This document shows positions 14,262 through 55,142 of a stretch of DNA of 64,000 nt, piece after piece (the first letter of the stretch is position 1; every line of letters starts with the position of its first letter). This DNA comes from Callorhinchus milii (lineage: Eukaryota): positions 133,488,001 to 133,552,000 of the forward strand of contig NW_024704742.1 of the NCBI RefSeq assembly GCF_018977255.1. The letters run 5' to 3'. Made by a program: the position numbers and the translations under genes. Under the pieces are notes generated by a model. That model was given only the letters and a program-made list of their open reading frames with translations. It did no database searches and was not told the DNA's origin.

Positions 14262-14405
14262 GAGTAATGGAGAAGTTGAGTCTGGGCCCCAAAGATTTAC
14301 TCCAGCAGAATTCAAAGCTAATCTATGCCAGACTAACGGGGTTTGGGCAGAATGGGCGGCATGCCAGTAAAGCGGGTCACGATATCAACTTTATTTCTCT
14401 GGCAG
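14262..14405 (+). CDS. AMACR: AMACR coding exon 2 (144 nt)
   Basis: Acceptor ttcttttccag. Encodes [10 protein letters not shown]...[12 protein letters not shown]...[11 protein letters not shown], including the catalytic His motif GHDIN. Donor G|GTATGT. Confidence 0.97.
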
Positions 14406-14820
14406 GTATGTATAGCCGTTTTATCACTATCAAATTCAGCAGAAATCGAACTAATATATTTTTTAAAAATTCCTTTCATGTTGGAAATAGTACTGGAAAG
14501 TGGTTGAGGAAGTTACAATTTGGGAAGGGGTTAAGAGGGGGATGGGGGAGGGAAGAAGATAACCATATACAAAATAACTGGATCGGAGTGGAATTGTTAG
14601 GCATGCATCCATAACAACCATTTTGCTAGTGATAATAATTGATTTGCTCCATGATCTTTTCTCCTTTTATGTTGGGAAGAGCTTTTTACCATTGGATTGC
14701 TTTGCAAAACGTCTGACTGAGATGTTTTTTTAAACTGTTTCATGTCAATGTTTACGATAGGAAGTGATGCAGCTGTAATAATTTTTGATCAACTTAAAGT
14801 GACGTTTCTTTGGAACTCAG

Positions 14821-14981
14821 GTCTTCTTTCCAATTTTGGTCGGAAAGGTGAGAATCCCTGTGCACCAGTGAACCTTCTGGGAGACTTTGCAGGAGGTGGG
14901 CTTATGTGTGCAATGGGTATAATTCTGGCGCTGTTTGAGAGGACACATTCGGGGAAAGGACAAGTCATCGACGCAAGCATG
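14821..14981 (+). CDS. AMACR: AMACR coding exon 3 (161 nt)
   Basis: Acceptor ...aactcag. Encodes [54 protein letters not shown], including the catalytic Asp in GDFAGG. Donor ATG|GTGAGC. Confidence 0.97.
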
Positions 14982-16600: not shown

Positions 16601-16787
16601 GTTGAAGGAGCAGCTTATTGTAGCTCTTGGCTATGGAAATCTCAAAAACTGAGCCTAATGGATAAGCCGAGAGGTGAGAACATCCTGGATTCTGGGGCGC
16701 CATTCTACGAGACATACAAGACGTCTGATGGGAAGTACATGGCTGTCGGCGCTTTGGAACCTCAGTTCTATGACAGACTAATAGAAG
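16601..16787 (+). CDS. AMACR: AMACR coding exon 4 (187 nt; not in the ORF track)
   Basis: Acceptor tttgccag. Manual translation [62 protein letters not shown]. Donor G|GTAAGT. Phases 0/1 fit the flanking exons. Confidence 0.96.
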
Positions 16788-18792: not shown

Positions 18793-18833
<41 letters not shown>

Positions 18834-19529
18834 TGTTGTCTGAGATGATTCTCTGAGGCCAAATAGAGCCCCTGTCAAATAGTTTGTTCCCAATCATTTT
18901 TCACACAGTTGAGATAGAGGATATACTATGGCACCTTCTCTTTCTGGTAATCTCTGCCTCAAACAATTTCCCTGACATTTTCCTGGTAATGGATTTTCTC
19001 AGCAAGTGGGTATCGAGGTGGACTTGTGACAAATAGAAAGTACTCCCATTAGAAGGAAATTAGGGGAAAGGGAGCTTGGCCTTTGGATCACAATGTGAAG
19101 TTAATTTTGTTTCCACGCCTGGAGTTTACGCAGTCTGGTGTAAGTAAAATGCATGTAAAGAAATTGAATTGCATTTCATTTTAATGGTTCCCGTGGAGAA
19201 TGCCTTTTGATTACATAACACGGGCTTTAAATTCCATGCAAGGAGACTGTCACGAATATCAATTCCTGGATTAACAGACGGGCAAATTCCTGTCTGTGAA
19301 TCTTGTTCTTTCACAGGTTTATGATGGGACTAGCATCCGATGCCTTAAGACTATGTGTGAACAGGACAGTCTTGCAAGTGGAGACAAACACTATAGTCTT
19401 ACTTATTGCTAGCAGAGGACAGAAAGAGCTCTTGCCTCCTTTTCCTTTCTCTTTCCTTTCCATGATGCATATGTGTAACTGAGTGATTCAGTCCAGTAGC
19501 ATTCTCAAGCTCAACGACGCTGTATGTTC

Positions 19530-20400
19530 TAACAGTTTATGAGATCTTGGCAGATGAGGATTAATGTGGAGCAATGCGAAATGATGCATTTTGGGAGGAA
19601 GAATGAGAGAGGTAATATAAGCTGACGGTAAAATCTTAAAGGGGATGAAGGAACAGAGAGACCTGAGGGGTCATATAAGTAAATCTTTGAAGGTGGCAGA
19701 CAGGTAGATAAAGCTGTTTTAAAAGCATACGGGATACTAGGCTTTATAAATAGGGGCATAGAATATAAAAGTCAGGAAGTTATGATGAACCTTTATAAAA
19801 CACTGGCTAGGCCTCAGCTAGAGACTGTGTTCAGTTCTGGGAACCACATTTTAGTAAGGATGTAAAGGCATTGGAAAGGGTGCAAAGGAGATTTACCAGG
19901 ATGGTACCAGGAATGAGGGACTTCTGTCATCAGGAGAGACTAGAGAAGCTTGGATTATTTTTGGAGCAGAGAGGTTAAGAGGAGACTGAATAGAAGTTTT
20001 CAAAATTATGAGGGGATTCATTAGGGTGAACAAGGAGAAACTATTTCCACAGGTTGGTCGGTAACCTGAGGACGCCAATTTAAAATAGTTGTCAAAAGAA
20101 ACAGGGCAGGTGAGGAGAAATTTTTTTACACAGCGAGTTGTTCAGATCTGGAATGCATGGCCTGAAAGGGTGGTGGAAGCCAATGCGATAACAGCTTTTA
20201 ACAACAACAACAAGATTCCATTTATAGAGCGCCTTTCACGTCGGGAGGACGTCCCAAGGCGCTGAAGAGAGAAGTAGATACTTATTTGGAGACGACAAGT
20301 TTGTAGGGTTGTGGGGGAGTGGATTGAATTGGATAGTTCTTTTTAAATAGCCGGCACAGACACGATGGGCTGAATGGCCATCTGTGCCTAATTCTATGAT
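19530..20400 (+). mobile_element. Degenerate CR1 LINE 3' end with a ~63 bp inverted L2 tail inserted at ~20201-20263
   Basis: CR1-type RT C-terminus WQMRINVEQCEMMHFGRKN..EQRDL. 3' end gatgggctgaatggcc...ttctatga. Confidence 0.85.
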
Positions 20401-21988
20401 ATATAATCGCATTGCACTGTCCTTTTGCCATGCCCCTTAAAATCTACTGTCCAAACATCTGTCTATCTCTCAGTTTGTTGCATGTTCTAAGCACTGCAGC
20501 GGCATTTGAAGTAAAGCTAAACTACAACAACAACTTGCACTTATATTGCGTCCTCCACGCAGGGTAGTGTCTCAGAGCGCTTAGAATCTATTCCTTAAAC
20601 AAAGTGAAACTTATCTTTCTTTAACTCTTTATTCTTCAAGAATCTTTTCCCCAATTGAACCTGTTAATGTCAGATTGATTCAGTTTTTTTTAAAACACAA
20701 GTTATTGTTTTCAGTAATTTCGTGGCATTTTCTTCCTTAGTAATGTTCCTGGCCTAATGCCATTATAGCAGCCTTATGATCTTTTAATTCACATCGGTTC
20801 TGAGAATAATAGATCTTGTCTGGGATCCTTGCGTATTTTGTAGAAAAAGGATCAGTTCTGACGTCGTAAGTAAGATATTCCTTCAGTCAGTTGATTTGGT
20901 GGTACGCCAATTAGCAGCATTGGTAAATTTTGAACGTGGGGAGAGAGAGAGAGAGTTGGAAGGACTCCAGGAGTTGCAGAGCCAGGGGCAGAATAACTGA
21001 AAGTTTGTCCGCTGATGGTGGGTCGTGCAGGGCTGTGAACTTGAAGTAGGCTGGTGTTTACTCAATGAGTAACATTAGGAGTGGGGGAGAGAGGGGTAAG
21101 TCACCCCAATGAGGTTGTGTCCCTTTCACCAGGTTAAACCAGACATTGGAAAGAGTCACGAGTGTGGATCCACCCATAATGGGAGGCGAGACCAGGATTG
21201 TATTATAAGGGATTAGGTTGGTTCGAATTCATCATGGTATTTGGCTGAAAAGTCTGACCTGGAAGTAAAATTAAAGGGGTTATCGGTAAGCTTTAGCACA
21301 TTATGTTACAAAAGCTAACTGTCGAGCACACTTGTGTATATCATTGGGATATTGGTTTGTTGAGTAACTTAACTTAACTCTGTGACCCGAACAAATAGAT
21401 TTTCTATCTGATCCTTACTAGACAAGCAGTGAAGCTTGTCAGACAGTGTTTTCAATGGTAAGCTAAGAGGTGGTTGAACTCTAGCAGTACCCCCAACACA
21501 CACACACATAATAATAATAATAATAATCCTTGCATTTGATATAGCGCTTTTCACGTCGGGAGGACGTCCCAAAGCGCTTCACAGAACACACTGTAAAGTG
21601 AATTGACTATATTTGTGGGCGAACGCGGCAGCCAATTGCGCACAGCAATGTCCCACAAACAGTCGTGGATTGAAAATGACCCATTATTGTTTTGTATTTT
21701 GGAGGGATTATTATCAGGCGTGTGGAGTAAGGAAACTTGCCCAAGGTTTCGCCCTCTGCCTGGAATTGAACTCAGGTCTCTCGCTTGCAAAGCGAGTGCT
21801 CTAACCACTGAGCTACAGGTAACGTACATACGTGGAATTCTGGTTTGAATTCTCTTAAGTGTTTTGATGGTTGCCACGCGTGTCGGACACCCAGCTGAGC
21901 AAAAAAAAACAGTAGATTTTCAAGCAGCACTTCACGTTGTAAAAACCATGTTTGTGGGCTGACCTCTTTTCTTTGCATTTCATGCCAG

Positions 21989-22398
21989 GACTGGGCTTAA
22001 ATTCGAGTGAGCTGCCTCCTCAGATGAGCTTATCTGACTGGCCAGAGTTGAAGAGAATTTTTACCAAGATCTTTGCAAGCAAGAGCCAAGCAGTGTGGTG
22101 CAAGATCTTTGATAACATTGACGCTTGTGTCACACCTGTCCTGTCTCTGCAAGAGGCTTCCAGGTACCCACATAACCAAGACCGGGGGTCTTTTATTACT
22201 GACGAGGACGGACAAGTGAGCCCTAGACCAGCCCCTCATCTGTCTCGGACTCCTGCCTGCGTCAGTCTGGCAAGAGACCCGAAAGTCGGCGAACATACCG
22301 AAGCTGTGTTGATGGAATATGGCTTCACCAGAGAACAGATAAATGCACTGCAATGTGCTGAGGTTATTGAACTTAATGGACCCAAAGCTAAATTGTAA
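21989..22398 (+). CDS. AMACR: AMACR coding exon 5 (410 nt including TAA); spliced CDS 1149 nt = 382 aa
   Basis: Acceptor catgccag after a pyrimidine tract. Encodes GLGLNSSELPPQMS...DACVTPVLS...PRPAPHLSRTP...GEHTEAVL...PKAKL*. Ends in the PTS1 tripeptide AKL. Confidence 0.97.
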
Positions 22399-27482: not shown

Positions 27483-27557
27483 AATGACACGTTTAACAGA
27501 GGGGTTTGGAGAAGTTTTGGATCCACTGCCCAAGGTGGGGTCCCGGCTGGTGAGAGG

Positions 27558-27897
27558 ATGGCAGACGGGGAGATGTTGAGGTCGGGGGAGCCGCCCAGCA
27601 GGTCCTCTGTGAGGCTGGTCATGCACAGCCTGGTCATGTTCGGCAGGGAGTTCTGCTACGCTGTGGAAGCGGCTTTCGTGACCCCAGTGCTGTTGAGCAT
27701 CGGGCTTCCCCGCAGCCTGTACAGCCTGGTGTGGCTCATCAGCCCAGCCGTGGGCTTCATCCTACAGCCCATCATCGGCTCAGCCAGCGACCACTGCAGG
27801 TCTCCCTGGGGCCGCAGGAGACCCTACATCCTAACCCTGGGGCTCCTGATGATATTGGGCATGACTCTGTTTCTCAACGCAGACGTGTTGGTTTCGG
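27558..27897 (+). CDS. SLC45A2: SLC45A2 (MATP, melanosomal transporter) coding exon 1; start codon uncertain
   Basis: Encodes [46 protein letters not shown]...[18 protein letters not shown], with the sucrose-transporter-like signature. Ends at a G|GCAAGT GC donor, phase 1. Confidence 0.9.
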
Positions 27898-28821
27898 GCA
27901 AGTTCCACGACTTATTTATTATATTATCTTTGTTTTATTATATATATATATGTATAATATTTTTTTCTTGGTTTGAAAAGCTCTCGTTTTTTATTGTGAA
28001 GTTTTCTTTTTAAAACGAGCTTTTATGCGGCACTTTGGAAAGAAACTTTTTGTTTGAGGTTTCGCTGTAAACTTTTGTGTGGAGTTTCGACAGTAAACTT
28101 TGATGCAGAGTTTGATTGGGACTGTTCTCAGGTGGAGAGAAGGAATCTTCTTTTGAAACACAGGTGAATTCTTTTGTTAAAAAGAAAGTTCTCTGCTATG
28201 AAATTTTAAATTAACTTTTTACATTTTAATATTAACTTTTATGTAAAGTTATGCAACTATTTCGGATCGAGAGAAGGTTTTTTTTAACATAGGGTGAGTT
28301 TAACGTTTTGTGTGTCAGTTGTTACACACTGACCAGCTGATATCACGATTTTATTTGCAATTTTAATGCAAAGTATTGTAGACACATATTGCAATACACT
28401 TTAGATACTTACGGTATTACCTGTAGATACGTATCACGATATAGTGTAGATAAGTATTATATCTATATTATAATACATATGTTATATGCAGTATATGAGA
28501 ATCTTACTTATTACAATATGTTTTTATAGTTAGTTTGCATTTTTATACCGTCAGCAACTTACAAAAAAATTGTCTTCAAAGTCAGTCAGTCCCTAATTCT
28601 GAAACAATTGAATAAGTATCTCCACTAAATATGAACACTGGAATTTTTCCCTTTTTATATAAAAAAAACACAACAGTAACTGGGTGAATGACCAATAGCT
28701 CTGTTGCACAGAAGGCCTGATTTGTTCTGCGTTAAGAGTCAGATGTGAGGTGCTTGAGAAGTGAACCACATTCCAGTGGTGGACTCAGGGAGGCTGACTG
28801 GCCACTCTCTGTGTGTTTCAG

Positions 28822-28998
28822 CTCTGATCAGCAGCAAGAAGCAAAGGTACATTTGGAGAATCTTGGCTGCTATGTTCGGAGTGGTCCTGTTCGACTTCTC
28901 AGCTGATTTCATAGATGGCCCCGTCAAGGCTTATTTGTTCGATATCTGCTCCCATCGGGATAAGGAGCGAGGGCTGCACTTTCATGCTCTGTTCACTG
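28822..28998 (+). CDS. SLC45A2: SLC45A2 exon 2 (177 nt)
   Basis: Acceptor gtgtttcag. Encodes ALISS...[40 protein letters not shown]. Donor G|GTGAGT. Confidence 0.96.
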
Positions 28999-30282
28999 GT
29001 GAGTGCTTGCCTTCTAATGCTCTTGGCAGCCAGTCATGTGTTAATTATCACAAGTTTCTCCATTCCAGAGAGCACTCACACACACACAAAGTCTCACCTC
29101 GTGATGTGCTATACCACAGGCAGGAGACCAGGAGGCATGACTTCTAGAGAGCAATGGGCATAAAAGAATCTCCTACATTGTCCTGCAAACACATTCCCAC
29201 GTTTTAACGCTGCTTTTCTTGCTGTGTCCAGTATGTCTTTTATATTTCTGGTTTAATGTAATTTATCTCAGAGTGGTCTGAGACTCTATCCTGCTTGTGG
29301 GGCACTATACAAATGCAAATTGTTGTAGTCTAATTTGTTTTTCGGGCCTGGTTCAGCGGGTAGCTGAAGGTTGTGGGTTTGAGACCCATGTCTGGATTTT
29401 GAACTCACATCTCGCTCTAGACTGATGATCTAGTGCAGTGCTGGCGGTGTGTTGCATTGTCAGTGGTGTCATCCTTCAGATGAGCCATTAAATCAAAGTC
29501 CAGTTTGCATGTTCAGGTGGACGTTAAAGATTCTGTGGCACTACCCGAAAACAGAAGGAAGGGATTTCACCCTGTGTCCTGGCCAACAATTCTCCAAATA
29601 AAATTGGCCATTTGCTTTGTGGCTGTTTGTGGGACATCGATGTGTGCAAATTGGCTGCTGCGTTTGAGTACAAAATACACGGTTCCTAAACCTTACAGTA
29701 AAATTAGCACTTTGAAACACCCTCTCAACCTGAAAGATGTAATATTAAATGTAAAGATTATTATTATAATCAACAGTTTCCATTGATTGGAATGAAGCTG
29801 CTTTTGGTATTAGTAAAAAATGTAAAAGATTATTTTGCATAACTTTTCAAGTTGGGAGGACGTCCCAAGGCGTTGCCAGTTAATCAAGGATTTTCACCCG
29901 AGCTGGGGAGTTGGGATCAGGAGGCGTGGGGGGCAGGGAGGGTGGGAGTAGGTGGGTGACCAAGGGGATGGTCAAACAGGAAGATTTTGAGACGGGCTTT
30001 GAAGGAAGCAAGGGAAGAGGGTAGGTGAAGGGACTGTCGTGTTGGATGGAGTTCCAAAGGGTGGGGCCAGAAAGGCTGGAGGCATGAATGCCAAAGGTGG
30101 GGCAGGCAGGTTGGGGCGATGGAGCAGACCAGAATCTGCTGAGCAGAGGGAGAGGTAAAAGAGTTAGGTACAGAGGTAAAGGCGAGTTAGAGAAAAGGGT
30201 AGCGGTGGCAAAGGCACAACAGGCATAACAGCCTCCCTTCTATGCAGGACATGACTCTTCCTCTATGTCTCTCTTTGTGCAG

Positions 30283-30620
30283 GTCTGGGAGGAGCACTTG
30301 GCTACCTCATTGGTGCCATAGAGTGGAACCACACAATCCTGGGAAGGATTTTTGGCTCTGAGTTTCAAGTCATATACTTTTTTGGGACAACCATCTTCAC
30401 TCTGTTTCTAATCGTGCACCTGTGTAGCATTCCAGAGGCTCCGTTTCGCCAAAGCACGGAACTGGACAGGTTTCTGTTGAAGGATAAGGACGCTTCTGTC
30501 TACGGAACCATCGAGAGCCCGGGCGATGGTCAACATGAGTCAGATTTGTACAAGCCAAATGCTCCACTATTGAAAAGGGAATTTGAAGCCAAAAACTATA
30601 TCAAAGCACCAGAAGGAGAG
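30283..30620 (+). CDS. SLC45A2: SLC45A2 exon 3 (338 nt)
   Basis: Acceptor ctttgtgcag. Encodes GLGGALGYLIGAIEWNHTILGRIFGSEFQVIYFF...HLCSIPEAP...YGTIE...APEGE. Donor GAG|GTATGT, phase 0. Confidence 0.95.
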
Positions 30621-30809
30621 GTATGTTGTCCATAGATAAGGAGCTGCCTAGGCCATTAAAGTAGTGCAGAGGAGAGCAATTGCAATGATGCGCATTGTTA
30701 GAGGAATGTGCAACAAGTAGACAAGTCAGGATGTCTCAGAGGGACAGTGGAATACAAGATTTTAATTGAGACTGAGTAAGTAAACCCAGAATAATACTTT
30801 CAGATACAT

Positions 30810-31190
30810 GGAGTCCTGTAGCGCAGGGGTTAGAGCTCTCGCCCTCACAAGCCAGAGAACCCGGCTTCGATTCCCAGGCAGGGTGAAACCTTAGGCAAGT
30901 TTCCTTACTCCACACGTCTCTGTTTACCTAACTATAAGCAGGAGGGTGGTTGTTAGTCAATTGGCAAATCACTTTCCTGGGGAAATAATCCCTTCAAAGA
31001 AATTGGGTCATTAAGTCCACGACTGATTGTGGGACACTGCTGTGCACAATTGGCTGCTACGTTTCAACCACAAAATACACAGTCAATTCACTTTACCATA
31101 CATACCATACCATACCATGAAGTGCCTTGAGTTGTTTCAACGATGTGATAAGGCGCTATATCAAATGCAATGATTCTTCTTATTATTACT
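30810..31190 (+). mobile_element. Full-length tRNA-headed SINE with L2-like tail. Other copies at ~18236-18660 (+), 21510-21818 (-), 31590-31950 (-), 45900-46130 (-), 50845-51230 (+), 59628-60025 (-)
   Basis: A-box-like TAGC(T/G)CAG(T/G)GG and B-box-like G(G/C)TTCGATTCC, body gggcaagtttccttactccac, and tail gcgctatatcaaatgcaa-(TTA)n. Recurs throughout the window. Confidence 0.88.
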
Positions 31191-31225
31191 AATATCATTT
31201 TAAAATGAGTTTTATTTCCGTTCAG

Positions 31226-31406
31226 ATTTACAGAAGGATCTTTTACCACTCATAGGGATGAAGGGATTATACTTTGTAGACTATTTCTTGTTCGGTCTCG
31301 GAACTGGGCTAATCGCCATTTTCCCTGTTGTCAACTCCATGCTGGTCCTGGGTGCAGTTTTTGGGCTGATGGCCAGGACCCTTTACACAGTCCCTTTTAA
31401 CCTGAT
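31226..31406 (+). pseudogene. SLC45A2: Duplicated, 3'-truncated copy of SLC45A2 exon 6 inside intron 3
   Basis: Aligns without gaps to 40644-40824. About 19 mismatches in 181 nt by manual count. Retains the acceptor. Confidence 0.93.
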
Positions 31407-33498
31407 GTGTAATAATGTTCTCTTTGTAAAGTGCTCTGAGACAATTATTTTATGTGAAATGTACTATATAAATGTAAGTTATTGTTGTTGAGGTGATTTA
31501 AGAAAGGGAACACTGTAAAAGACTGACTCAATTGGTAGCTCTCTCACCTCTCGGTAATAAGGTTGAGGGTTTGAGCCCCACACGAGGAGTTAATAATAAT
31601 AAGAAGAATCGTTGCATTTGATATAGTGCCTTATCACATCTTCAAGATGTCTCAGAGCTCTTCATAAAACGTACTGTTTAGTGAATTGGCTGTATATTTT
31701 TGGGGCGAAACGCGGCAGCCAATTGTGCACAGCTGTGACCCATACACAATCGTGGGCATTGAGTGACCAAATTAGTTTGATTTATTTTGAAGGGATTATT
31801 ACTCCCGGAAAATCCGCCAATCAAGTAACAGTCGGGTCCCTACTGATTGTTAGGTAAACAGAGGCGCGTGGAGTAAGGAAACTGGCTCAACATTTCGCCC
31901 TGCCAGGAAACGAACCCAGGGAACCGAGTGCTTTAACCACTGAGATACTGTTGAGTTGACCTCACAATCAAGGCTGACACTTAAGCAAAGCTCAGAGAGA
32001 ACAGTGCATTGGTAGAACAATACAAATTCACGGTACAGAAGAAGACCATTCGGCCCTCAACAGTAATCCTTTCAGTTCCATTTACCTGCCCTTTCCCCAT
32101 ACCCTTGCAGCTGACTCTTTTTCAGGTATTTATCCAGTCACTACTTGAAACCCAACATGGATTCAGCCTCACCACCGTCACCATTCCATATCCAACTAAT
32201 CTGAGTGTAAAAAATGCAAGTGTTATTATTAATAAAGTTCGCACTATGGCTGCTTGTGGGACATTGCTGTGCACAAATTTGTTGCCCCTCTAGCCTACAA
32301 ATATAAAAAGTCACTGCGGTTTACAGAAGCTTTGAGAAATTATAATAATAATCGTTGCATTTGATATAGTGCCTTTCATGTCAGGAGGACATCTCAAAGC
32401 ACATCACAGGATTCACTATAATGCAACGGTGCGAATGAGCAGATTTATTTGGGGAAATTGTAGGCACAGGGAATTTGGGAGAAACTCCTTTCATTTTCAA
32501 GTAGCGTTTCTTTGTTCCTGATTCATGGCCCCATGGCCTATCTCCACATGAATATTGCATTGCATTTATTTTAGGATGACTAGCATTCAGCCTGCACCAG
32601 TTTATCTCAGAAGGAAACATTCATCCCATCAGTTTGGGCTGAATTTCTTAATGGGTTCTGCAGGGGATGGAAAAAGATCTATCCTTGCCGTGCTGCCCAG
32701 TTCCTTACAAGAAATTTCTCATGACCTTAATCTAAAGAACATGATCTTAAAATTTAACATCGTGCACAATTTTTGTAAAATTATTCAACTTACTTTTAAC
32801 TCAAGAATCGGTTATCCCGTAGGTCAAGAATTTAGGTTATTTAAGCAAATTAGGTTAATTAAGACTGAGTTTTAAGAATCCTTTCCAAATTCTAATAGGT
32901 TAATTAAGAGTGAGTTTTAAGAATTGCTTCCAAATTCTAATTACAATATATATATATGTTTCGCCCACAAATATACAGTCAATTCACTTTACAGTATATT
33001 CTGTGAAGCGCTTTGAGATGTCTGGAAGACATGAAAAGCGCTACAAATGCAAGGATTATTATTATATATTCTGTGTTTTGAGGTGGTTCAATGATGCGAT
33101 AAGGCACTACATCAAATGCACGGATTTATTTTTTAAGTATAAATTAATATTAATATATTACTAAAATTAATATTATAAATTAGTATATTTTTATTATAAA
33201 TTTCACAAAACCTTACATGTTAAGACAGAAGTTGTTCACACTGGAGAAGGTTGTGAGGGGCAGTGGAAGCAGAAAATTTGTTTCAAGATGAATTAGATAA
33301 AGTTCTGCTAGAAAATAATATCTCAGGATACAGTGTATAGTTTGTGTATAGTCACGGACTGCCAGGATGGTGGAAGGCATACTATGTGGACCTTCTTTCG
33401 CCTACCAAATTCTTGTGATCTTATGTAGTTCCGAGGTTAAGACTGTGAGGAATTTTGGTCATTGTGGGGTTTCGCTGATATGTTGCTTTCATTTCAAG

Positions 33499-33642
33499 GT
33501 GCAGCCACGTATGACGCTGAAATCCCTGATTAAGGCTCTGCTCAGCATGCCTGCTCATTACCGTTACTTGTGTGTCAGCCACCTTATAGGATGGACAGCT
33601 TTCCTCTCAATCATGCTCTTTTTTACAGACTTCATGGGGCAG
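33499..33642 (+). CDS. SLC45A2: SLC45A2 exon 4 (144 nt)
   Basis: Acceptor atttcaag. Encodes [48 protein letters not shown]. Donor CAG|GTAAGA. Confidence 0.95.
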
Positions 33643-33835
33643 GTAAGAAAGGAACAACTTGTGAATGGTTTGGGTTTTCAGATTCTTCTTGGATCGAGCC
33701 ATAGAAATGTACAGCGAAGAAGAAGGCCGTCATGTCTGTCGTGGCTCTTTTAAAGGACAATCCTTTCAGTCCCATTTACCTGCCTTTTACCCCCATGTGC
33801 TTACTCCTTTTTAGATATCTATCGAGTAGAAATCA

Positions 33836-35129
33836 TGTTATATGGGTCCCGGCTTGATCAACCGATCACAATGACTCGGGATACACACCCTCCTGGCTGG
33901 CTCACCAACTGTAAACTGTAGCGGCGATGGCTGAATTGGTACACACACAGATCTGAACACCGTTTCGATAGTATAAATAAGTTTAATCAAAATAACTGGT
34001 TGCAACTGACATCACGAATATTGAAAGACTCATAAGGGTTAGTGATTGGTTATACCTTAAGGGTTAAATGGACATTAGGCTTTAAACTAAATAGATCACA
34101 TACAGTCGACCGCATACTAATCCCGAATACAGTTCAATAAATCACAAGTTTGAATCACATGATATCAAAGGTTTTAAGCGAAAGAGGGTGCATTATGCAT
34201 GGATGCTTGGAAGTGCGAAACTATACTATCGGTAACTAGCAGTCAATCAGCCGGGTCGGGTAGAAGCAGCGTGCTGGGAAAGGAGGCTGGGTCAGCGGTC
34301 AAATCTGACTGGTCTCTGGAGTCTGTGACAAGGCTTCCTTTTTTTTTCTCTTTTTTTTCTCTCTCTCTCTGGCTACCTTGTCTCCCTCTGGTGTGTTTGT
34401 GGTATTCTGCCTTAATCGATCTTTCCCCTGAAGTCTGCAGTCCAGAGTTCTCCGGTGATCAGCATGATCGACTGGAAGAGCTGCCTGTTGCTGGTCTCTT
34501 GAGTTTTAACTCGGAGTCTGTATTGTTCTTCCTCCTTCAGCCCTCCTGCTCGTCCTACGAGGAGTCGTTCTCAATCTTGAGTTTCTGTGGTTTCGGTTGG
34601 AGAGGTCAGCCCTTCGCAATGATGACCACAGAGCCTCCTCCCCTGTTCTCTCCCCGATCCGAGACAACTTCACTCAGTTTCTAAAAGTACTGACTCTTAC
34701 AGTCACATCACCTTTTGACCGTTACCTTCCTTCAGATCTGCTCATCTTAACCTGCGCATGGTGTTCATTGTATCGATACCCCTCAGTGATGATTTCTCAC
34801 GCATTCCTTTGCCCCTCGTGACTCTTCTCCTGGCTCCTAATCTCCTTGTCCCAGGCTCCCTGTCCCGGCCTTGAAACTGTTTTCTGACATGTTTTGTTTT
34901 TCTGGAAAATGTAACTTCGTCTAACTTCTTTGATAGCTCTAAACCCATTTGTACCAGCCTGCTGACCGCTAGGTTCAATTTACTGCTGACTTCCGTGGTT
35001 TCAAAGGTCATTCAATTGCCTATTTTCCTTATTAAACAGCAGCGAGTACATTACCCATAATCATATGAATCAACGCTTATAGTCCTGATCATACATAACA
35101 TAATTATCCATAACTCATCATTATTTACA
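33836..35129 (-). repeat. Putative 3' LTR (~1.3 kb) of the ERV
   Basis: On the minus strand it begins TGTAA one base after the PPT and ends ...TAACA at 33836, with ATTAAA at 33982-33987. No second LTR is visible to confirm the boundaries. Confidence 0.6.
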
Positions 35130-36454
35130 GTCCCCACCTTGAGGGGGAAAGGCTTAAACGTTGACCCCTCACCTCCGAATTAAATCTATCAGGTTCAGCT
35201 GGGTTGCTCATTGTTGCAGCTCACGAACTAGCCCGTGGTCCCAACACACTGACCCGATCAGCACTACCATCACTATCATTTGGACAATCATGAACATTTG
35301 TGACATCAAATGCAGAAGGGGTGTTGGTGCAGCAGGTGACATGATGATCCAGATTGCTAATGAGTACCACACTTCAATCCTTGGTTCTGCTTCTGTAAAG
35401 GATCAAGCATATGATGTGTTACTTATACAGTTTCAGCTGATTAATGTGATGCTATCTCGTGTGTTTCCTTCCTTTTGTATTGTATTGTAGTAAGTATACA
35501 AAGAGGCTGGCTTTATCTACTATGGGAAAGGTGCCTCTATATCGCACTTGAAAAGGGTAGCATTTCTTTCCGAAGTCCAGAACCATAACCGAGTCTCCCA
35601 CGTCATATTCAGTTGCTTTGACTTTTTTGTCAAAGCAGTGTTTCATTGCTGCTTGGGTTTTCCCGATATTGGTGGCTACGTACAGGTTAGTAGCCTGAAT
35701 GTGCTCTTTCATTTTGAGTACCCAATTTTCAGTAATGGCGCTTATTTGGACCGGTGTTAAGCTGGGTAGCATCAGTTTTTCTGGTCTTATCATCAAGTGC
35801 CATTGCTGCCATTGCTTGATGTGGAGTTATCCCTGTGGTGGAATGTGGAGTAGCTCTGATTGCCATCAGGCACATAGGATGGGGTGATCTGCACAAAACT
35901 TCTTGAGCATTGTTTTAAGTGTCTGGTTTCCCCTCTCCACTACCCCTAATGATTTGGGGTGAAAGGAAATGTGAAACTTTGCTGGATACCCAACAAGTCC
36001 TGTAATTCGGTAAAGATCCGCCCGGTGAAATGGGACTCCTGGTGGCTGTCCACTTGCAGTGGTATTTCCCACCTGCAGACCACTTCACGCAATAGCAGCC
36101 TGGCTGCTGTCAAAGCGGTGTTGAATTCAGTCTCTAAGTCCATTGCTGGAGCAAGGAATCATCGTCCCCTTTCAGGAGTTCGTATAAAGGTTTTGCCAGC
36201 TCAGCGAAAGATGGTATAAAGGATCGCTAGTACCCACCAATCCCAAAAATGATCGCAGGGCAGTTTTGGAAGTAGGTCAGGGCAATCGTTGTATGATCTT
36301 CACCTTGTGTTCATCTGGTGTTCGCCTTGTTTCGGATAGTTGGACGCCAAGGAAAGTGACAGTAGATTGCATCAATCAAGCCTTTTTAGGGTTAATTTTT
36401 AACCCTAATATTTGTAGCCGCTGGATTACATCAGCCAAGATTTCCAGATGCTGC

Positions 36455-36958
36455 TGCTCCCCCAGAGGATTGAATTCAAGATCCTCATCCTCACCTACAA
36501 GGACATTCACGGCCTCGCTCCTTCCTACCTCTCCGACTACTATCCCCCTATTTACCTGCCCGTACTCTCCGTTCCTCTGGCTCCGGTCTGCTCCACGTCC
36601 CCCGCCCCAACGGCCCTACCCTCGGTGGTCGGACCTTCAGCCTCTCAGTCCCTAGGCTCTGGAACTCTATCCCCCAGTGCCTTCGCCGCTTCCTCCCTTT
36701 CCTCCTTCAAGGCCGGTCTCAAGACCTTTCTCTTTGACCGTGCCTTCAGCTCCCCTCTCAACTCTCTACCCCTTCCTCGCCTCCTCCCTTCCCTCCCCTC
36801 ACCCTGACTATTTCCCCCCTCCTTGCTCCCTCCCTTCCGTCCCCTCACCCTGACCATTTCCCCCCTGCTCGGGTCCTGACCCAACTCTCCAGCGCTTTGG
36901 GACATCCTCCCGATGTGAAAGGCGCTCTATAAATAGAATCTTGTTGTTGTTGTTGTTG
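36455..36958 (+). mobile_element. L2 3' fragment inserted into the ERV RT just after YVDD
   Basis: Near-identical to 9080-9516. Has a (TTG)n tail. The RT reading continues on the other side of the insertion. Confidence 0.9.
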
Positions 36959-38070
36959 TCTGCCGTAGCAATCAGTACATCATCCACGTAGTGGAATACA
37001 CATTCGGAGTGTACACACCCCTTCATAATTGCTGCCATACCCTTGTGGGATATGATGGGGGCATTGTGAAACCCCTGGGGAACACAAGTCCATGTATACT
37101 GTTGGTTGTCGAAGGTGAAGGTAAACTTGTATTGATCGTCCGCCACTACCAGGACACTCCAAACGCCATTGGAAATATCTAAGATTGAAAACACTCGGGC
37201 AGCCCGCGGCAGACTGGTTAATAACATGGGAGATGCGCAGGAAGGGGTGACCTTGTTAAGGTGCCTATAATCAATCGTGAGATGCCAGTTCCCGTCGGGC
37301 TTACAGACTGGCTGTACTGGAGAATCCATGGTAAACGTGCCTTTGTGAATGACTCCCTGATACAACAGAGACTCGATCATAGCCGCAACATACAGGAGGC
37401 TTTCCCGAGGTATTGGGTACTGTCGGCACTGTCGGTGGGGAGGACGTTTATCGTTTCTGGGGTGTCCATTCTCCCTGATCAAATATTATTATTAGTAACC
37501 TTTCCCCTGATTCTTTGCTAACAATCCCATTGTGTCTCTGCTAATGCTGACCAAGCAGTCTGAGACACAACTCTGCGTGAGGAGGAAGGTATAATAATAA
37601 TCATCATAATAATACTTGCATTTCATATAGCGCCTTATCACATCTTTGAGACGTCTCAAAGCGCTTCACAGAATATTCTGTAAAGACTTCAGGCAAAAAG
37701 CAGCAGCCAATTGTGCACAGCAATGTCCCACAAACAGTCATGGATTGAGTGACCAAATTATTTTCTATTTTGATGGAATTATTACCCCCCAGGAATAGAA
37801 ATGTAAATCGTCGTTGTTGTTGCTGACTCTCTGCTCTAACTCCATTCCCTTGCTCTTTACTCTTACCCATTGGTATTATTTTTCTCTCCAAGCAAGAAAA
37901 TCCAATTCCATTATAAATGTAGTTTTGGCTTTAGCTTCAGCAAACAGAGCAGCTAATCCGCTTCAGCAACCTGGAACGCTTTGAGATATCTCGTCAACGT
38001 GATAAGACGCTGTGTCAAATGCAAAGATTATTATCCTAGCTGGTTTCCCTCATCTTTTCATTTGTTTCAG

Positions 38071-38194
38071 ATAGTTTATCGTGGTAATCCCTACGCAGAG
38101 CACAATTCCACGGCGTACATTATCTATGAACAAGGTGTGGAAGTAGGATGTTGGGGCCTTTGCATCAATGCTGTTTCATCTGCGTTGTATTCAT
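38071..38194 (+). CDS. SLC45A2: SLC45A2 exon 5 (124 nt)
   Basis: Acceptor tttgtttcag. Encodes [41 protein letters not shown]. Donor T|GTAAGT, phase 1. Confidence 0.96.
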
Positions 38195-40643
38195 GTAAGT
38201 GCTGGAAGCTAAATCCTTCACTACTGATCAACTGTGTCTTGTGGATACCAATCGCTCCTTTGCCTTTGAAATATAAATATTATAATGAGGGAGAATAATC
38301 TGCGACTGTTCTCAATAAGATGTGGATTGATTATTGAATTGAAACCCAAAGTTGCACCACAGTCTTATCTGATGTTCTTGTTTTTACTGATGCCATCATG
38401 CAGGGCAGGAAAGTTTTAATGAGATGATCTATGGTAGGTGGAAAGTAAGAGGAGTGTGGCGTACTGTAACCCGATTGGAAAGTAATGATTGATTCGAAAG
38501 GGGAGGGATGAGCACAAGATCAAAAAAGGACTGTTAAGCGGGTATGGGTCACTAACTAGCCTAAAGTTGCAACTGAGGCAAGAAGACAATACAGATCTGT
38601 TTCCCGGATTGTTAACTATACCTTTTTCTGTAACCTGCTATTTCCATACCGACCTGTCCTTTCCCTTCACTCAGCGGATTCTGGCCTGGTCCATGTCTCG
38701 TGCCTGACCCGCCCCACCATCAGTGGTCGGCCCTTCAGCCTCTCTGCCCCCACCCTTTGGAACTCCATCCCACAGTCCCTTCGCCTCCCCCCCTCCCTTG
38801 CCTCCTTCATGGCCCGTCTCAAGACCCTCCTCTTCAAACATGCCTTCGGTCATCCTCCTACTGCCACTCCCCCTGCCCTCCACCTTCCAGGATCCCAACC
38901 CCCAGCTCGGGTGCAAATCCCTGACTGTCCAAAACCTTGGGACGTCCTCCTGACATGAAAGGTACTATACAAATGTAATTTGTTGTTGTAAGAACACGTT
39001 GTCTCAGTATTCAAGATTATGCAGAATTGTGGAAAATTCTTGAATTTAGGCTTCTTTTGGAAGCTGGTCTTCCATGGTTTTGATGACACTGCATTGATAG
39101 AGGTGCTGTTATTTACCATGAGAAGTCGAATCAAGGTTCCATCTGTTTGTTTAAGTGGACATTAATGATCCCATTGCTCTACTCGAAAAGAGAAGTGCAT
39201 TTCACCTGGTGTCCTGGTCAACAATCCCCATAGATAAAAAATGACCATTTCCTTCCTGGCCCTCTTTGTGGGTCATCGCTGTGTACAAGTTGCTGCAGAG
39301 AGTATTAGACTCAGTTTGGCAAGAATCCAGAGTGTGTGTTTGGGGTAACTCCTGGAGTTTAACTAACTTAAACCAAATAGCTTTCCATTGAGAGCACTAT
39401 CTGGCAAGCTTCCCACTGCTTGTCCAACTAGGACCACCCTACCTGTTAGGGCTTGCAGGGTTAAAAGGAGCTGAGTGGAATGCCTCACTGCTCCCAGTGA
39501 CTGGTCTGCCCTTTCAAGTCCTGCTAATGGGCCAGGCTGAGTTGTGCTGTCATCAGCAGTTCCTTAGAATATTGCAGACCCATTGGACAAGCGAGACCGC
39601 CACAGAGAACTGGCTCGATTCCGACATTGTGTTGCTAAGCGTGTCACCTTGGAAGCAGTTCAGCTTAAAAATGATCTCTTATATGGCCTTGTCAAAGTGC
39701 AGTTTGCTTGCACAGCAAGCATACTGCATCCAGTGACCTGCAGATGGAGTCTGTGTGCTACTTTTTCAGAAAGTTGTGCTGTGTTATCCCGTTGACTGCT
39801 GGCTATCCCTGAGAACTCCATGCCCTCTGAGTTAGAAGGTTTCAAAACCAAATACAAATAAATCCTTGTATTTGATACAGCGCCTTATCACATCATCGAG
39901 ACATCTCAAAGGATATACTGTGAAGTAGTGTGACTTTGTGTGTCTTATGGGCAAAACGTGGCAGCCAATTTGCATACGGCAATGTCCCACAAACAGCCAC
40001 GGTGTGAACTTAACTCATGTTATCCGGGGGGATTGCTGGCATAAGGACACCGGGAGAAATTCCCTTTCCTTTTCAAATAGTGCCATGAGAGTTTGGATTG
40101 CCCTGCCAAGTATTGTGGTAGAGACAGAGCCCTTTAGGTGTTTCAAGAGGGAAGCAGACAGGTATCCCAGGGCCTTGGGAGGTCCTCCCTACATGAAAGG
40201 CACTATACAAATGCATTTTTTTCTTGTTTATAATGAAGAGTAGAGGCTTGAAGGCATATGGGATGAAACAATGTGACAATATTAAAGTCATCCAGAATGT
40301 TCTCCCAACGTGAAAGGCGTGATACAAATGTAATTTGTCTTGTTGTCAGAAGTAACTAAATAAACTTTAATAGTCAGAGCCTGTTTACTATTTTGTGGGT
40401 CCACAAATAACACAAGTGCTTTGTGGCCTTGTGGTTTACCAGAGATGTGGTACACCTGTGTGTCAACCAGGTGCACCTTTGAACTACAAGGTTGTGAGTT
40501 GAAACCCTTGCTCACAAAATACACAGTCAATCCACTTTACAGTACATCTTGTGAAGTGCTTTAAAATGTCTCAACGCTATATCAAATGCAAGGATTATTC
40601 TTAACATTATTATTCCTAATAATATCATTTTATTTCCTTTTAG

Positions 40644-40849
40644 ATTTACAAAAGGGCCTTTTACCACTCATAGGGCTGAAGGGATTATATTTTGTAGGGT
40701 ATTTTCTATTTGGTCTCGGAACTGGGCTAATCGCCATTTTCCCTGTTGTCAACTCCACGCTGGTCCTGTGTGCAGCCTTTGGGGTGATGTCCAGTACCCT
40801 TTACACAGTCCCCTTTAACCTGATCTCCGAGTACCACAGAGAGGAAGAG
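40644..40849 (+). CDS. SLC45A2: SLC45A2 exon 6 (206 nt)
   Basis: Acceptor ttccttttag. Encodes [28 protein letters not shown]...[19 protein letters not shown]. Donor GAG|GTAAGA. Confidence 0.96.
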
Positions 40850-41929
40850 GTAAGAGTTGGGATGTATGTTGAAGAATGATGTAATAATGATCCTTACATT
40901 TGATCCAGTGCCATTCATTTCGAGAGGATGTCTCAAAGTGCTTCACAGCTACACCGTGAAGTGTGGTGACTGCGTATGTTCCAGGTGAACGAAACACCCA
41001 ATTCTCACACACACACACAGCCATAAAGTGAATGATTAATTTTATCTGGCAGGATCCTAGCCTCTTTGGCTAAGGCCCTTTGTAAAACACCTCAAACTAT
41101 CTGAATGCAGTTCCTTCCTGGTGTTTCCTTCAGATAGACGTTAAACTCTGACGCTGCTATGATGGTTAAAGGTCCCTTAGAATTAATCCAAGGTGTTCTC
41201 CCAGAAACCTGACCAATATCCACCACCTTCGGGAGAAACAGGAAATATTGGTCAAAATTTCGGATGTTGTTTAAAATCCACCATCAACCTCTGCTGAAGG
41301 CTATTGAGTCCTTCCTTTGTCAAAGGTGCCATCCTTCGGATGAGGAGTTAAACCGAGGTCCTGTCTGCTTGTTCAGGTGGATGTTAAAAGATCCTATGGC
41401 ACTACTCGAAAAGAGAAGGGAGTTTCTCCCAACTGCAAAGAAAGCCCATGATGTACTTTGTAGTCTGAGAATGTGATGAGGCACTATATCAAATGCAAGG
41501 GTTATTATAATAATAATGAGAATGATAGTTGTATTTAATGCAGACCCTTATGTCATTCAGATGTCTGAAAACACTTCACAGAAAATACTGTAAAGTGAAT
41601 TGACTGTATACTTTGTGGGCAAAACGCAGCAGGTAATTGTGCACAGTAGTGTCCATAAATAGTCATGGATTGCATGACCAAATTACGATTATTATATTTT
41701 TTTATTATTACTATTATAACCAATTAGGATATAGCCAAAAATACAACCAACTGAGCCAAAGCCACATTTAGCGAGGGTAATTCTGAGAGCCCAGCCCATG
41801 TGAAGGGTGCTGTATGAATGCAAGTTGTTGTTGTTGTGATGGTTGATAAGGATTTGCAGAGTTTAGAAGGTTCTGGTGGAAATGTGCCCTACGACAGACA
41901 GAAGATTATGATTTTCCTGTGTTTTTCAG

Positions 41930-42154
41930 ATGCACCACAGGGGCAATGGGGGACTCCCATATGACAGCCGGGGTAAAGGCATCGACTGCGCCGCACTGAC
42001 CTCCATGGTGCAGCTGGCACAAATCCTGGTGGGAGCCGGGGTAGGTGCCTTGGTCAACATGGCAGGCAGCGTGATTGTTGTGGTGATCTCGGCGTCCGCC
42101 ATGTCTCTGGTCGGCTGTTGCTTCGTCACATTTTTCATCAGATATGTCGAGTGA
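41930..42154 (+). CDS. SLC45A2: SLC45A2 exon 7 (225 nt including TGA); spliced CDS 1554 nt = 517 aa from ATG 27558
   Basis: Acceptor gtttttcag. Encodes MHHRG...[35 protein letters not shown]...FFIRYVE*. Candidate AATAAA at 42170 and ~42873. Confidence 0.96.
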
Positions 42155-44176
42155 AGGTCAAGAGCGAGAAATAAAATGGGGTGAAGACCACAGTCCGTTG
42201 ATTCTGCACGCTTTCCTTCTGCACTTCCCCATAGTAACATCACGGCATCTACACTGTACTTTGTATGGAAGCCGAAGGGAAATGCAAGAACAACAAGTAA
42301 GAACAACAGCAACAACTTGCACTTATATAGCGCCCTCCACGCAGGGTAACATCTCAGAGCGCTTAGTAAAATCTTATTTAACATGTTACAGTGAGAAATT
42401 CCACCCATTTTCTTAGCATTCAGAGTTTGAACTTTGAAGCCGGCTTTTTGAAAGAAACTTATCAATAACTCACCTCAAAAAACAAAGTTGGATTTGGATT
42501 TTGAAATGGAAAGCCATGAGTTTTTTTTAGCACGCACGCACACTCTGGGGTGGGAGGTGGGGGTTTGGGGGGGAAACCTTGGCTCTCACCAACCCGTGCT
42601 GATACTTTCTAGGATCGGGTGAAATGGAGTGTGTCCCTCTGGGGAGAGAGTGCGCAATCCATTCCAGACGGGAATGAAAATTCCCACGCGGGATGTGGAA
42701 CTCTCAGCAATTTGGTTGGAGATGGTTTGTGATGGGTTTCCGTGTGAGTCGACCCCTGTCTGACCAAGAAAAAGGGCAATATCTTCTCGTCTGGTGCTAT
42801 GTCCATTTTGGTTGAAGTGATAACCCTCTGACCCAGAGGCGAGCAGGGCAGGCACTGAGCCAAACTGACACACAATAAACAAACCCTTTTTATTTCAAGT
42901 TGTCGTGACTTTTTGTTGAGCTTCTTTTGTTCCAGGCAAATGAAAAGATTAGCTTCCTGCCTTGTGTGAGCACACAGCACGTTGACACGAAGGTGAAGAG
43001 AGACTAAACCAAGATACCATCTGCCTATCCGGGTGGATGTTAAAGATCCCTTAATTCTGTAATAATAAATAATAATCCTTGCTTTTGATATAGTACCTAA
43101 TTGCGTTGTGAAGAAAAGCTCTGCATAGCTGAAAATTAAGGATGACAATTCCAACCAGCCGAATAATAGTAAAACTAGTTTGTGAGAAGGAAAGTGTAGG
43201 AAAATACAGACCAGAAATGGAAAATAACTCAAGAGGAACTCTGTCAAGGAATTCGATAGGATAGCTACAGAGAAACTGGATGTGTAGGGGAAAAAAGTCC
43301 CATAGGATTATCTGTTATCTGGGACGACATATCAAAGTGACTCGTTCAATGTGTACAAATAAATAGAAAGGGAATTGTACACAAGAAAGTAAGTTTATTC
43401 ACAGAATGTTGACTATGGGCCAACAGTACAATAAAACCTGCCCTTTGCTCTGCTAGAGCTAGTCAGCAATGTTAAGAAGTTAAACCAACGGTGCTGGGGC
43501 TTAATATCCTGACACAGAGAGAAGATGCATGCAGATAGCTCATATTCCATGCCTTTTTCTATCAGAAACATTAGAGTCATTAAGCCTCAGTTCCTTTCTT
43601 GTTCCTCTGATGAATTTCCTCCTAATTGTCACTGTGCTACAATCAGAATATTACTCAGTCAGTGCTCTCATGACAAACTTTGTGGTGTTAGATGGTTAAA
43701 CTCCATCATTACCTCCAGGACGCACTCTGAGGATCCCAAACCTTGGCTCTCTCCAAACAGTGCCTAATAATCTCTGGAATTAGGTTAGGAGGGAAAGACA
43801 TTGGATTTCCATGTATAAATAAATAATCTTTGCATTAGATAAAGTGCATTCACATCAAGAAGATGTCTAAAGTGATTCTCCGGATACACTGTAAAAGTAT
43901 ATCGACTGTCTTTTGTAGGCAAACATGGCAGCCAATCTGCACACAGCAATGTCCCACAAAGAGCAGGAAGTGAATGACCAATTTTATTTCAAGGATTGTT
44001 AGCCATGACAGCTGGAGAAACTCCCCTTTCCTATTTAAATAGTGGCATGAGATCTTTAATGTACACCTGAACACCTGAACAGGCAGATACAATCTTGGTT
44101 TAATATCTTGTCCATCAGCACTGGGGTCATCCTGGACTATATGAGCTCAAAGTCTTAACATGCGACTTGAACCCAC

Positions 44177-54870: not shown

Positions 54871-55142
54871 GGCTCTGAGTCGCAGACTTACCCGCTCCTC
54901 CCCCTTCCCCCTTCCCAAGTGAAACGAGTGTTCCGGTGGACGGGCGGTGTAAGGGCGCGTTCAGCCCATGATCAGGCGCTTGGGGGCGTCCGGAGTGGCG
55001 GATCGCTTTCTGCGGCAGCGTTTATCCGGATTCATCTTCTGAAGGAAAAAGGGAGAGAGAGAAGGGAGAGAGGAGAGAGAGAGAGAGAGAGAGAAAAACA
55101 CACACACACACCCCCCCCCACCCCCAGAGCAACGATCACCTC

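What the first reader, a model, noticed from the sequence alone, without database searches (positions are those of the whole stretch)
33836..37590. Spuma/loki-like endogenous retrovirus hidden antisense in SLC45A2 intron 4
Seen on the minus strand: RT (QYP, PV.KPDG.W.LTIDYR.LNK, LDISNG.WS, QYTWT..PQGF.N.P, YVDD), then an integrase core with a GPY/F-like tail, a short env-like remnant, a PPT and a long LTR. RNase H and the integrase N-terminus appear internally deleted, and gag and the 5' LTR are missing. Established: PQG-type RT motifs are retroviral rather than Ty3/Gypsy (MPFG), and LD..NG.W with YVDD resembles foamy virus RT. Inference: the element is foamy-like or belongs to the lokiretrovirus sister lineage. 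Foamy-like ERVs are reported from elephant shark; I do not recall lokiretroviruses from chondrichthyans, so it could be an undescribed lineage.
Basis: partly seen in the sequence, partly recalled or inferred. Interest (0 to 1): 0.75.

Follow-up and report, generated by a model that had tools for sequence, protein, structure and literature searches.

The report
Broken snakehead-type retrovirus relic in chimaera
This is a real but dead, heavily deleted retrovirus relic in an intron of a cartilaginous-fish pigment gene, and it is a sister family of an endogenous retrovirus already described from the elephant shark, so it is probably neither a foamy virus nor a lokiretrovirus.

Summary
The element is real. 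It is an antisense provirus remnant in SLC45A2 intron 4. It holds RT split by an L2 fragment, a deletion of about 1.5 kb (tether, RNase H, integrase N-terminus), a frameshifted integrase, a 269-nt spacer, a PPT and a 1,294-bp LTR. RT trees place it inside Retroviridae, apart from loki-motif and Gypsy rows. Its sisters are an unnamed Pol and a Xenopus tropicalis Pol. An AU test rejects a loki grouping (p=0.027) but not foamy (0.148) or Gypsy (0.083) groupings. The closest published element is elephant-shark CmiERV lineage I = ca_mi_ERV1, which is snakehead-retrovirus-like (clade Huo). It matches 84 of 133 RT residues by eye and has a similar PPT, post-pol splice acceptor and TAACA end, but a different LTR. 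Sequencing runs hold diverged relatives, most densely over the LTR. One lacks this deletion and one shares the short spacer. The env remnant is unproven. Verdict: a new family of a known class III group; low interest. The scan's index held no look-alike.

The parts
33836..35129 (-). 3' LTR, 1,294 bp, TGT...ACA; ATTAAA poly(A)-like signal at 33987
   Evidence: Termini and motifs. 5' edge supported by a diverged contig whose match stops at 35129 (X1 record 6). The 3' edge rests on the TAACA end, also seen in CmiERV-I; it was not confirmed by reads.
35130..35140 (-). Polypurine tract directly before the LTR
   Evidence: nearly the same motif precedes the 3' LTR of CmiERV_Scaffold 2 (by eye)
35150..35418 (-). 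269-nt spacer between pol stop and PPT: splice-acceptor-like site near 35393 and a hydrophobic 64-codon frame (35402-35208); possible env remnant, unproven
   Evidence: No Pfam or Atlas hit; hydropathy control 22 of 2000 and 1 of 1000; one diverged contig has a similar short spacer (X2 record 12)
35419..36131 (-). Integrase core (N-terminal part missing) and C-terminal GPY/F-like domain; three frameshifts and one in-frame stop; pol stop at 35421-35419
   Evidence: tblastn to P0002, profile hits in four frame pieces, Pfam rve
36132..36137 (-). Junction of the internal deletion (about 510 codons: tether, RNase H, integrase zinc finger and start of core)
   Evidence: Jump in P0002 coordinates from about 430 to 943 (domain positions); an 89%-identical contig leaves the reference at 36133 (X2 record 15, X3 record 23)
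36137..36457 (-). RT end/thumb; two in-frame stops and one frameshift
   Evidence: Pfam RVT_1 165-205, tblastn
36458..36958 (+). 5'-truncated L2-type LINE fragment with (TTG)n tail, inserted into RT just after the YVDD motif
Evidence: 81-90% identity to other window copies; the longer copy at 8103-9515 has an RVT_1 frame.
36959..37449 (-). RT fingers/palm, one stop-free frame with LDISNG, PQGFHN and YVDD
   Evidence: trees
37450..37590 (.). Unassigned. Weak by-eye likeness to the protease-RT linker up to about 37476; the rest has no detected homology. A SINE-like repeat follows at 37590-37800.
33490..33642 (+). Host SLC45A2 exon 4 (start approximate); donor 194 bp from the LTR end
   Evidence: gene name from motifs and AMACR-SLC45A2-RXFP3 synteny (recalled), domain classes
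38071..38194 (+). Host SLC45A2 exon 5; limits how much of the provirus 5' part can remain here
   Evidence: AG/GT boundaries, open frame

Best explanation
This is the 3' part of a long-dead endogenous retrovirus of the snakehead-retrovirus-related class III group (clade Huo). It is a sister family of elephant-shark CmiERV lineage I and of a Xenopus tropicalis ERV. History: (1) germ-line integration, antisense in SLC45A2 intron 4, by the ordinary retroviral route (inferred from PPT-LTR anatomy and integrase); (2) the family left other copies and many more LTR copies (shown as diverged contigs; solo-LTR formation inferred); (3) this copy lost its 5' LTR, gag and protease, suffered a 1.5-kb pol deletion that at least one relative lacks, gained an L2 insert, stops and frameshifts (shown). 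It can make no working RT or integrase and is most likely neutral debris that is spliced out with the intron (inferred). Env was probably lost or cut down in part of the family before some copies spread (weakly supported).
For: Top two hits among 1.84 billion proteins are P0001 (59%) and X. tropicalis P0002 (53%; PR-RT-tether-RNase H-IN). Query+P0001 100/93 and +P0002 98/94 in a 55-row RT tree; 100/95 and 99/71 in a 41-row RT-tether tree. Retrovirus clade without loki-motif and Gypsy rows 99/93 and 100/99. Integrase independently scores best with P0002 (139 bits vs 74 for a loki-motif Pol). ca_mi_ERV1 RT: 84 of 133 positions identical in two ungapped blocks (my count by eye). Its LTR start matches Han's CmiERV_Scaffold 2, lineage I, which clusters with SnRV. 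That element has near-identical integrase-core DNA stretches, a splice acceptor right after pol, a similar PPT and a TAACA end (by eye). Ca_mi_ERV1 is listed in the Huo block, and the five C. milii foamy-like sequences in Tu. Paralogous contigs.
Against: My trees do not resolve the base of the retrovirus clade. The SnRV-like row P0008 is not sister to the query's group, so 'clade Huo' is taken from the papers through ca_mi_ERV1. The comparison with ca_mi_ERV1 is by eye; it could not be put in the tree. Its placement in Xu 2018 is read from tip order in PDF text; the figure was not seen. AU tests did not reject query+feline foamy virus (p=0.148) or query+Gypsy (p=0.083) on 165 columns. A frog+shark pairing is also reported for XtrFLERV/CmiFLERV, whose sequences I could not see. 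Contig depth is not copy number.
Confidence: 0.85

Rival explanations
1. A foamy-like ERV in the strict sense (CmiFLERV/XtrFLERV group, clade Tu); the X. tropicalis Pol P0002 would be XtrFLERV.
For: Best PDB hit is foamy Pr125Pol. Long LTR. Shark and X. tropicalis FLERVs cluster in Aiewsakun and Katzourakis 2017. AU p=0.148.
Against: The PDB search listed no SnRV-like RT, so 'best hit foamy' is weak. The query never groups with feline foamy virus. P0002 has no Spuma_A9PTase or SH3_11 hit, which P0073 has. The query has W.LTIDYR and QYKF.FTF, where foamy Pol has WRMVLDYR and TAFTW. ca_mi_ERV4 shows the foamy-type motifs and differs (by eye).
Confidence: 0.08
2. First chondrichthyan lokiretrovirus.
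For: Shares W.LTIDYR.LNK and DQYK..F.F.NQQYTW-like motifs with Loki RTs. None is reported from the Chondrichthyes row seen in Wang and Han's supplement.
Against: PQGFHNAP instead of PFGY.NSP. Outside the loki-motif clade (100/99) in both careful trees. AU p=0.027. The shared motifs also occur in CmiERV-I and P0008. The loki rows were labelled by motif, not by accession.
Confidence: 0.02
3. A Ty3/Gypsy LTR retrotransposon.
For: P0002 carries an automatic 'Gypsy retrotransposon integrase-like' label. No env is shown. AU p=0.083.
Against: The intact relative has tether plus a second RNase H, the retroviral/loki arrangement. PQG motif. Gypsy rows form a separate 100/100 group.
Confidence: 0.01
4. 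The LTR or the short hydrophobic frame has been kept for a host function, for example antisense control of SLC45A2.
For: The LTR end is 194 bp from the exon 4 donor. One run guessed to be RNA covers only the LTR zone. The hydrophobic frame is somewhat unusual.
Against: The LTR is multicopy and those contigs differ from this copy. Contigs cannot show strand or level. No conservation across species was tested.
Confidence: 0.04

Closest known systems
CmiERV lineage I (Han 2015, PMC4422223, scaffold 2) = ca_mi_ERV1 (Xu et al. 2018, PMC6001957)
   Same: RT about 63% identical by eye; closely similar integrase core; splice acceptor after pol; PPT; TGT...TAACA LTR ends; same host group
   Different: No likeness seen between the LTRs by eye (about 0.8 kb vs 1.3 kb here). 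CmiERV-I has gag, protease, RNase H and a full env with ISD/CX6CC-type TM (read by eye); this copy has none. Its integrase C-terminal linker is longer.
Xenopus tropicalis ERV Pol UniRef A0A803JYW4 (P0002) and frog/coelacanth 'NYNRIN-like' Pols (P0007, P0169, P0172, P0005)
   Same: 49% RT, 50% thumb, 42% integrase C-half to P0002; starred clade with it
   Different: P0002 is an intact PR-RT-tether-RH-IN frame; different host class; its LTR and env were not seen
ca_mi_ERV6 (Xu et al. 2018)
   Same: An RNase H-integrase fragment that resembles P0002 by eye, so the same wider lineage; it could be this very family
   Different: It covers the part deleted here, and only its first 400 letters were visible, so identity could not be tested
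Snakehead retrovirus (L001/P0008; name recalled from genome length and gag start)
   Same: 43% RT identity; type virus of the group in the papers
   Different: Not sister to the query in my trees; complex genome with env
Foamy viruses / CmiFLERV, XtrFLERV (PMC5512871)
   Same: LD.SNG.W, PQGF.N.P and YVDD motifs; long LTR
   Different: Different RT motif set; no Spuma protease in the intact relative; separate block in Xu's tree
Lokiretroviruses (PMC7947760)
   Same: W.LTIDYR motif; dual RNase H in the relative
   Different: PFGY motif absent; excluded by tree and AU test; no F-like env or smc seen

Membership tests
Retroviridae (ERV) | RT inside the retrovirus clade, apart from Metaviridae | tested here: met
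   99/93 and 100/99; the AU test against Gypsy was not significant (p=0.083)
Retroviridae (ERV) | Tether plus second RNase H | tested here: inconclusive
   Deleted in this copy; present in the closest full Pol P0002
Retroviridae (ERV) | PPT directly before a TG...CA LTR | tested here: met
   edge at 35129 supported
Retroviridae (ERV) | env gene | tested here: inconclusive
   Only a 269-nt spacer with a hydrophobic frame and no homolog
Retroviridae (ERV) | Paired LTRs, PBS, target-site duplication, gag | not testable with these tools
   5' part absent; no host genome held
SnRV-related class III (clade Huo) / CmiERV lineage I group | RT closest to CmiERV-I / ca_mi_ERV1 | tested here: met
   84 of 133 by eye, against 58% over 160 columns for the best database row; different spans, not a computed tree
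SnRV-related class III (clade Huo) / CmiERV lineage I group | Supported RT clade with snakehead retrovirus | tested here: inconclusive
   Base unresolved; grouping taken
CmiERV lineage I family itself | Same LTR and high nucleotide identity | tested here: not met
   LTRs differ in start, length and sequence by eye; 0 hits for 4 DNA motifs in Han's supplement
Foamy / FLERV (clade Tu) | RT groups with foamy viruses | tested here: not met
   Not grouped in three final trees; only one true foamy row; AU p=0.148, so not formally rejected
Foamy / FLERV (clade Tu) | Spuma A9 protease, Gag_spuma, foamy Env | tested here: inconclusive
   Absent from this copy; the relative P0002 has RVP-type hits, not Spuma_A9PTase
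Lokiretrovirus | RT in the loki clade, sister to retroviruses | tested here: not met
Lokiretrovirus | PFGY.NSP RT motif (seen in the Loki rows) | tested here: not met
   Query has PQGFHNAP
Lokiretrovirus | Env related to paramyxovirus F; smc gene | not testable with these tools
   No env or gag region left in this copy

The most novel reading that the evidence does not exclude
An uncatalogued chimaera family of SnRV-related ERVs with 1.3-kb LTRs that lost most of env early, kept only a spliced short membrane-peptide frame, and spread inside the germ line like a retrotransposon, leaving many LTRs of which some are still transcribed; it would pair with a X. tropicalis family as a second fish-frog link at the base of retroviruses.
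Probability: 0.2. Interest if true: 0.4.

Novelty: new member of a known kind. Interest (0 to 1): 0.2.

Why it matters
It matters little. Class III ERVs are the commonest ERV RT type in cartilaginous fish (2,843 loci in 6 genomes, PMC11089739), and this lineage is already published from the elephant shark. The locus adds one more family to a poorly resolved part of the retrovirus tree. It also shows that foamy-like RT motifs and a best PDB hit to foamy RT do not identify a foamy virus. A lokiretrovirus in a chondrichthyan would have been news, but the evidence is against it. If the family proves to be env-less with active LTRs, it would be a modest case of a retrovirus turning retrotransposon in a slow-evolving genome.

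Tried and rejected
No host genome was held, so copy number, fuller copies, TSD and LTR dating could not be tested. The word-indexed protein search with the RT frame ('longer') found 0 hits at E<=1e-20 among 260 candidates. The search with P0001 gave 4 hits among 1537 candidates, none a named chondrichthyan protein. Viral contigs: 0 loci with the RT frame; 1 locus of 55 pattern matches with the alignment. ESM Atlas gave only generic RT clusters and nothing above 0.79 for the hydrophobic frame. No RNA holder was listed for the stretch. CmiFLERV/XtrFLERV alignment rows were not visible, because the supplement is cut. Exact motif searches gave 0 hits for 5 element-specific motifs in Xu's supplements, whose long runs are cut at 400 letters, so this is no evidence of absence. 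A 'CCT..P' likeness of another spacer frame to gamma-type TM was noticed and rejected as post hoc and unsupported by Pfam. Trees: 80 of 286 proteins then held went into. 25 of those 80 were dropped for (near-duplicates, fragments, long branches, among them P0139). 41 rows were used. Group labels other than feline foamy virus are motif-based or recalled. (bacterial promoter scan on 11 bp) was uninformative. Repbase and Dfam could not be searched. Seven paper searches showed no description of this exact family.
Full report
Setting. The window holds AMACR-like (CoA_transf_3), SLC45A2-like (MFS_2) and RXFP3-like (7tm_1) genes in a row (gene names from motifs and recalled synteny). SLC45A2 exon 4 ends at 33642 and exon 5 spans 38071-38194, so the element lies antisense in intron 4. 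The host is a cartilaginous fish, probably Callorhinchus or a close chimaera. This is an inference: the window's LINE frame at 8103-9515 is nearly the same, by eye, as the LINE-derived protein printed under ca_mi_ERV2 from C. milii. No host genome was held.

Observation. The RT motifs lie in one stop-free frame, 37485-36958, with Pfam RVT_1 E=1.3e-15. A 500-bp LINE fragment at about 36458-36958, 81-90% like other copies in the window, splits RT just after YVDD. The RT end follows, with two stops and a frameshift. At about 36137/36131 homology jumps from about residue 430 to 943 of the best full-length relative. By that protein's domain map this removes tether, RNase H, the integrase zinc finger and the start of the core. 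Integrase then runs in four frame pieces to a stop at 35421-35419. After a 269-nt spacer come a PPT and a 1,294-bp LTR, 35129-33836, TGT...ACA. There is no second LTR in the window. No retrieved protein or profile hit extends upstream of about 37449, and exon 5 begins 600 bp further on, so gag, protease and the 5' LTR are absent. The env remnant is not shown: Pfam and the Atlas give nothing. The 64-codon hydrophobic frame is matched by 22 of 2000 random window stretches and 1 of 1000 shuffles, a post-hoc test.

Relatives. Among solved structures foamy Pr125Pol scores best (94 bits; MLV 52; Ty3 50). Among 1.84 billion representative proteins the best two are P0001 (unnamed, 59%) and P0002 (X. 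tropicalis A0A803JYW4, 53%); the best single-domain hits after them include coelacanth and frog ERV Pols. P0002 is an intact PR-RT-tether-RNase H-integrase frame. It is also the best match to the integrase half: 139 bits, against 89 for other frog Pols and 74 for a loki-motif Pol. RT and integrase therefore agree.

Trees. Only the stop-free RT frame was used. In the 55-row careful tree (165 columns) the query joins P0001 (100/93) and P0002 (98/94), inside a retrovirus clade (99/93) that excludes five loki-motif rows and seven Gypsy rows. The 80-row quick tree and a 41-row RT-tether tree (100/95, 99/71, 100/99) agree. Feline foamy virus (P0073, named) is never its sister. The base of the retrovirus clade is unresolved, and the SnRV-like row (P0008, 99.4% identical to the 10,688-nt record L001; name recalled) is not its sister either. 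AU tests: query with loki rows rejected, p=0.027; query with foamy virus p=0.148 and with Gypsy p=0.083, not rejected. The loki rows were labelled by the PFGY.NSP motif seen in Wang and Han's Loki proteins, not by accession.

Literature match. Xu et al. 2018 list six C. milii ERVs. The RT of ca_mi_ERV1 matches the query at 84 of 133 positions in two ungapped blocks (my count by eye) and looks closer still to P0001. Its LTR start is that of Han's CmiERV_Scaffold 2, lineage I, which clusters with snakehead retrovirus. In the text of Xu's S2 figure Ca_mi_ERV1 stands in the clade Huo block near Snakehead_retrovirus, and the five C. milii foamy-like sequences stand in clade Tu (tip order only). Read by eye, CmiERV-I has closely similar integrase-core DNA, a splice acceptor just after pol, a near-identical PPT and a TAACA end. 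It differs in having a shorter LTR with no likeness seen by eye and a full env with a gamma-type TM signature. The element is thus a sister family and not a copy of CmiERV-I. ca_mi_ERV6, an RNase H-integrase fragment like P0002, may be the same family, but it covers the part deleted here. Against this reading: a shark-frog pairing is also reported for CmiFLERV and XtrFLERV, and I could not see those sequences.

Other copies. Fourteen of 24 listed runs hold the stretch or part of it, all of one species label. Four were laid on 33650-36450 at 80% likeness. Summed contig depth over most LTR bins is several times that over pol (X1: 52-124 for 34026-35153 against 6-15 for 35154-36450); the tool warns that this is not copy number. 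Most laid contigs are under 95% alike. One contig's match ends exactly at 35129, supporting the LTR edge. An 89%-identical contig in two runs leaves the reference at 36133, so at least one relative lacks this deletion. One contig (about 84% alike) has the same short spacer with 52 more letters. Another joins 35155 to 35437 with unknown sequence between. X6, only guessed to be RNA, covers the LTR zone alone. The LTR's 3' edge was not confirmed, because the loose-end table was cut and dominated by a neighbouring repeat.

How it works. Shown: retroviral RT and integrase, PPT-LTR anatomy, multiple breaks, diverged relatives. Inferred: ordinary germ-line integration, later solo-LTR formation, loss of the 5' half, neutral decay, and removal with the intron. 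The L2 insert is younger than the provirus. No function is indicated. Early env loss in part of the family rests on one contig.

Verdict. Observation confirmed; interpretation partly supported. It is a new family-level member of a known group, the SnRV-related class III ERVs, which are common in cartilaginous fish. Interest 0.2. It may already be in Repbase or Dfam, which I could not search. The scan's index held no look-alike sequence, and the notes did not bear on it.

Papers seen. PMC7947760: main text parts 1-2 of 4 and supplement searches, file cut. PMC4422223: part 1 of 2, supplement search, supplement 1 part 1 of 3. PMC5512871: passages and supplement searches. PMC6001957: parts 1-2 of 5, supplement search, file 7 part 4 of 40 with runs cut at 400 letters, S2 figure text. 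PMC10699275: parts 1-2 of 4. Passages only: bioRxiv 2020.12.18.423569, PMC8278194, PMC11089739, bioRxiv 2021.11.23.469661, PMC4977317. A 2023 J Virol paper on cartilaginous-fish endogenous foamy viruses is recalled and was not seen. Unseen supplements (RT alignments of PMC7947760 and PMC5512871, full ca_mi consensus files, bioRxiv supplements) bear on the family and clade assignment.

Noticed in passing
window 33910-35035 (run X6): A run guessed to be RNA covers only the LTR zone, with one contig of very high depth at 34379-34586 (5 differences). Some LTR copy elsewhere may be transcribed; contigs cannot show strand or level.
   Followed up: no
window 35118-35433 and 35155/35437 (X2 records 12 and 13): One relative shares the short pol-PPT spacer, and another has different sequence there; the family may have at least two 3' variants.
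   Followed up: partly
window 8103-9515 (+): A 471-codon stop-free LINE RT frame. It is nearly the same, by eye, as the protein printed for ca_mi_ERV2 in Xu et al. 2018, whose visible first 400 letters are LINE-like and not retroviral.
   Followed up: partly
window 33733-33830: A short, very high-copy repeat sits between exon 4 and the LTR end, with copies at 9821-9901 and 32065-32138.
   Followed up: no
window 37590-37800 and 38627-38989: A SINE-like repeat with many window copies, and an older L2-like fragment in intron 5.
   Followed up: no
window 11328-22395, 27550-42156, 53644-54960: AMACR-like, SLC45A2-like and intronless RXFP3-like genes in the order recalled from other vertebrates.
   Followed up: partly
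P0002, P0007, P0169, P0172: Intact frog Pol frames of this ERV group are auto-annotated as 'NYNRIN-like' or 'Gypsy retrotransposon integrase-like'; the P0007 cluster has 24 near-identical members, which suggests recent activity in ranid frogs.
   Followed up: no
window 19826-19942: A weak tblastn hit (E=2e-7, 39 aa) to the C-terminal part of ERV-like protein P0087, perhaps another small retroelement fragment.
   Followed up: no
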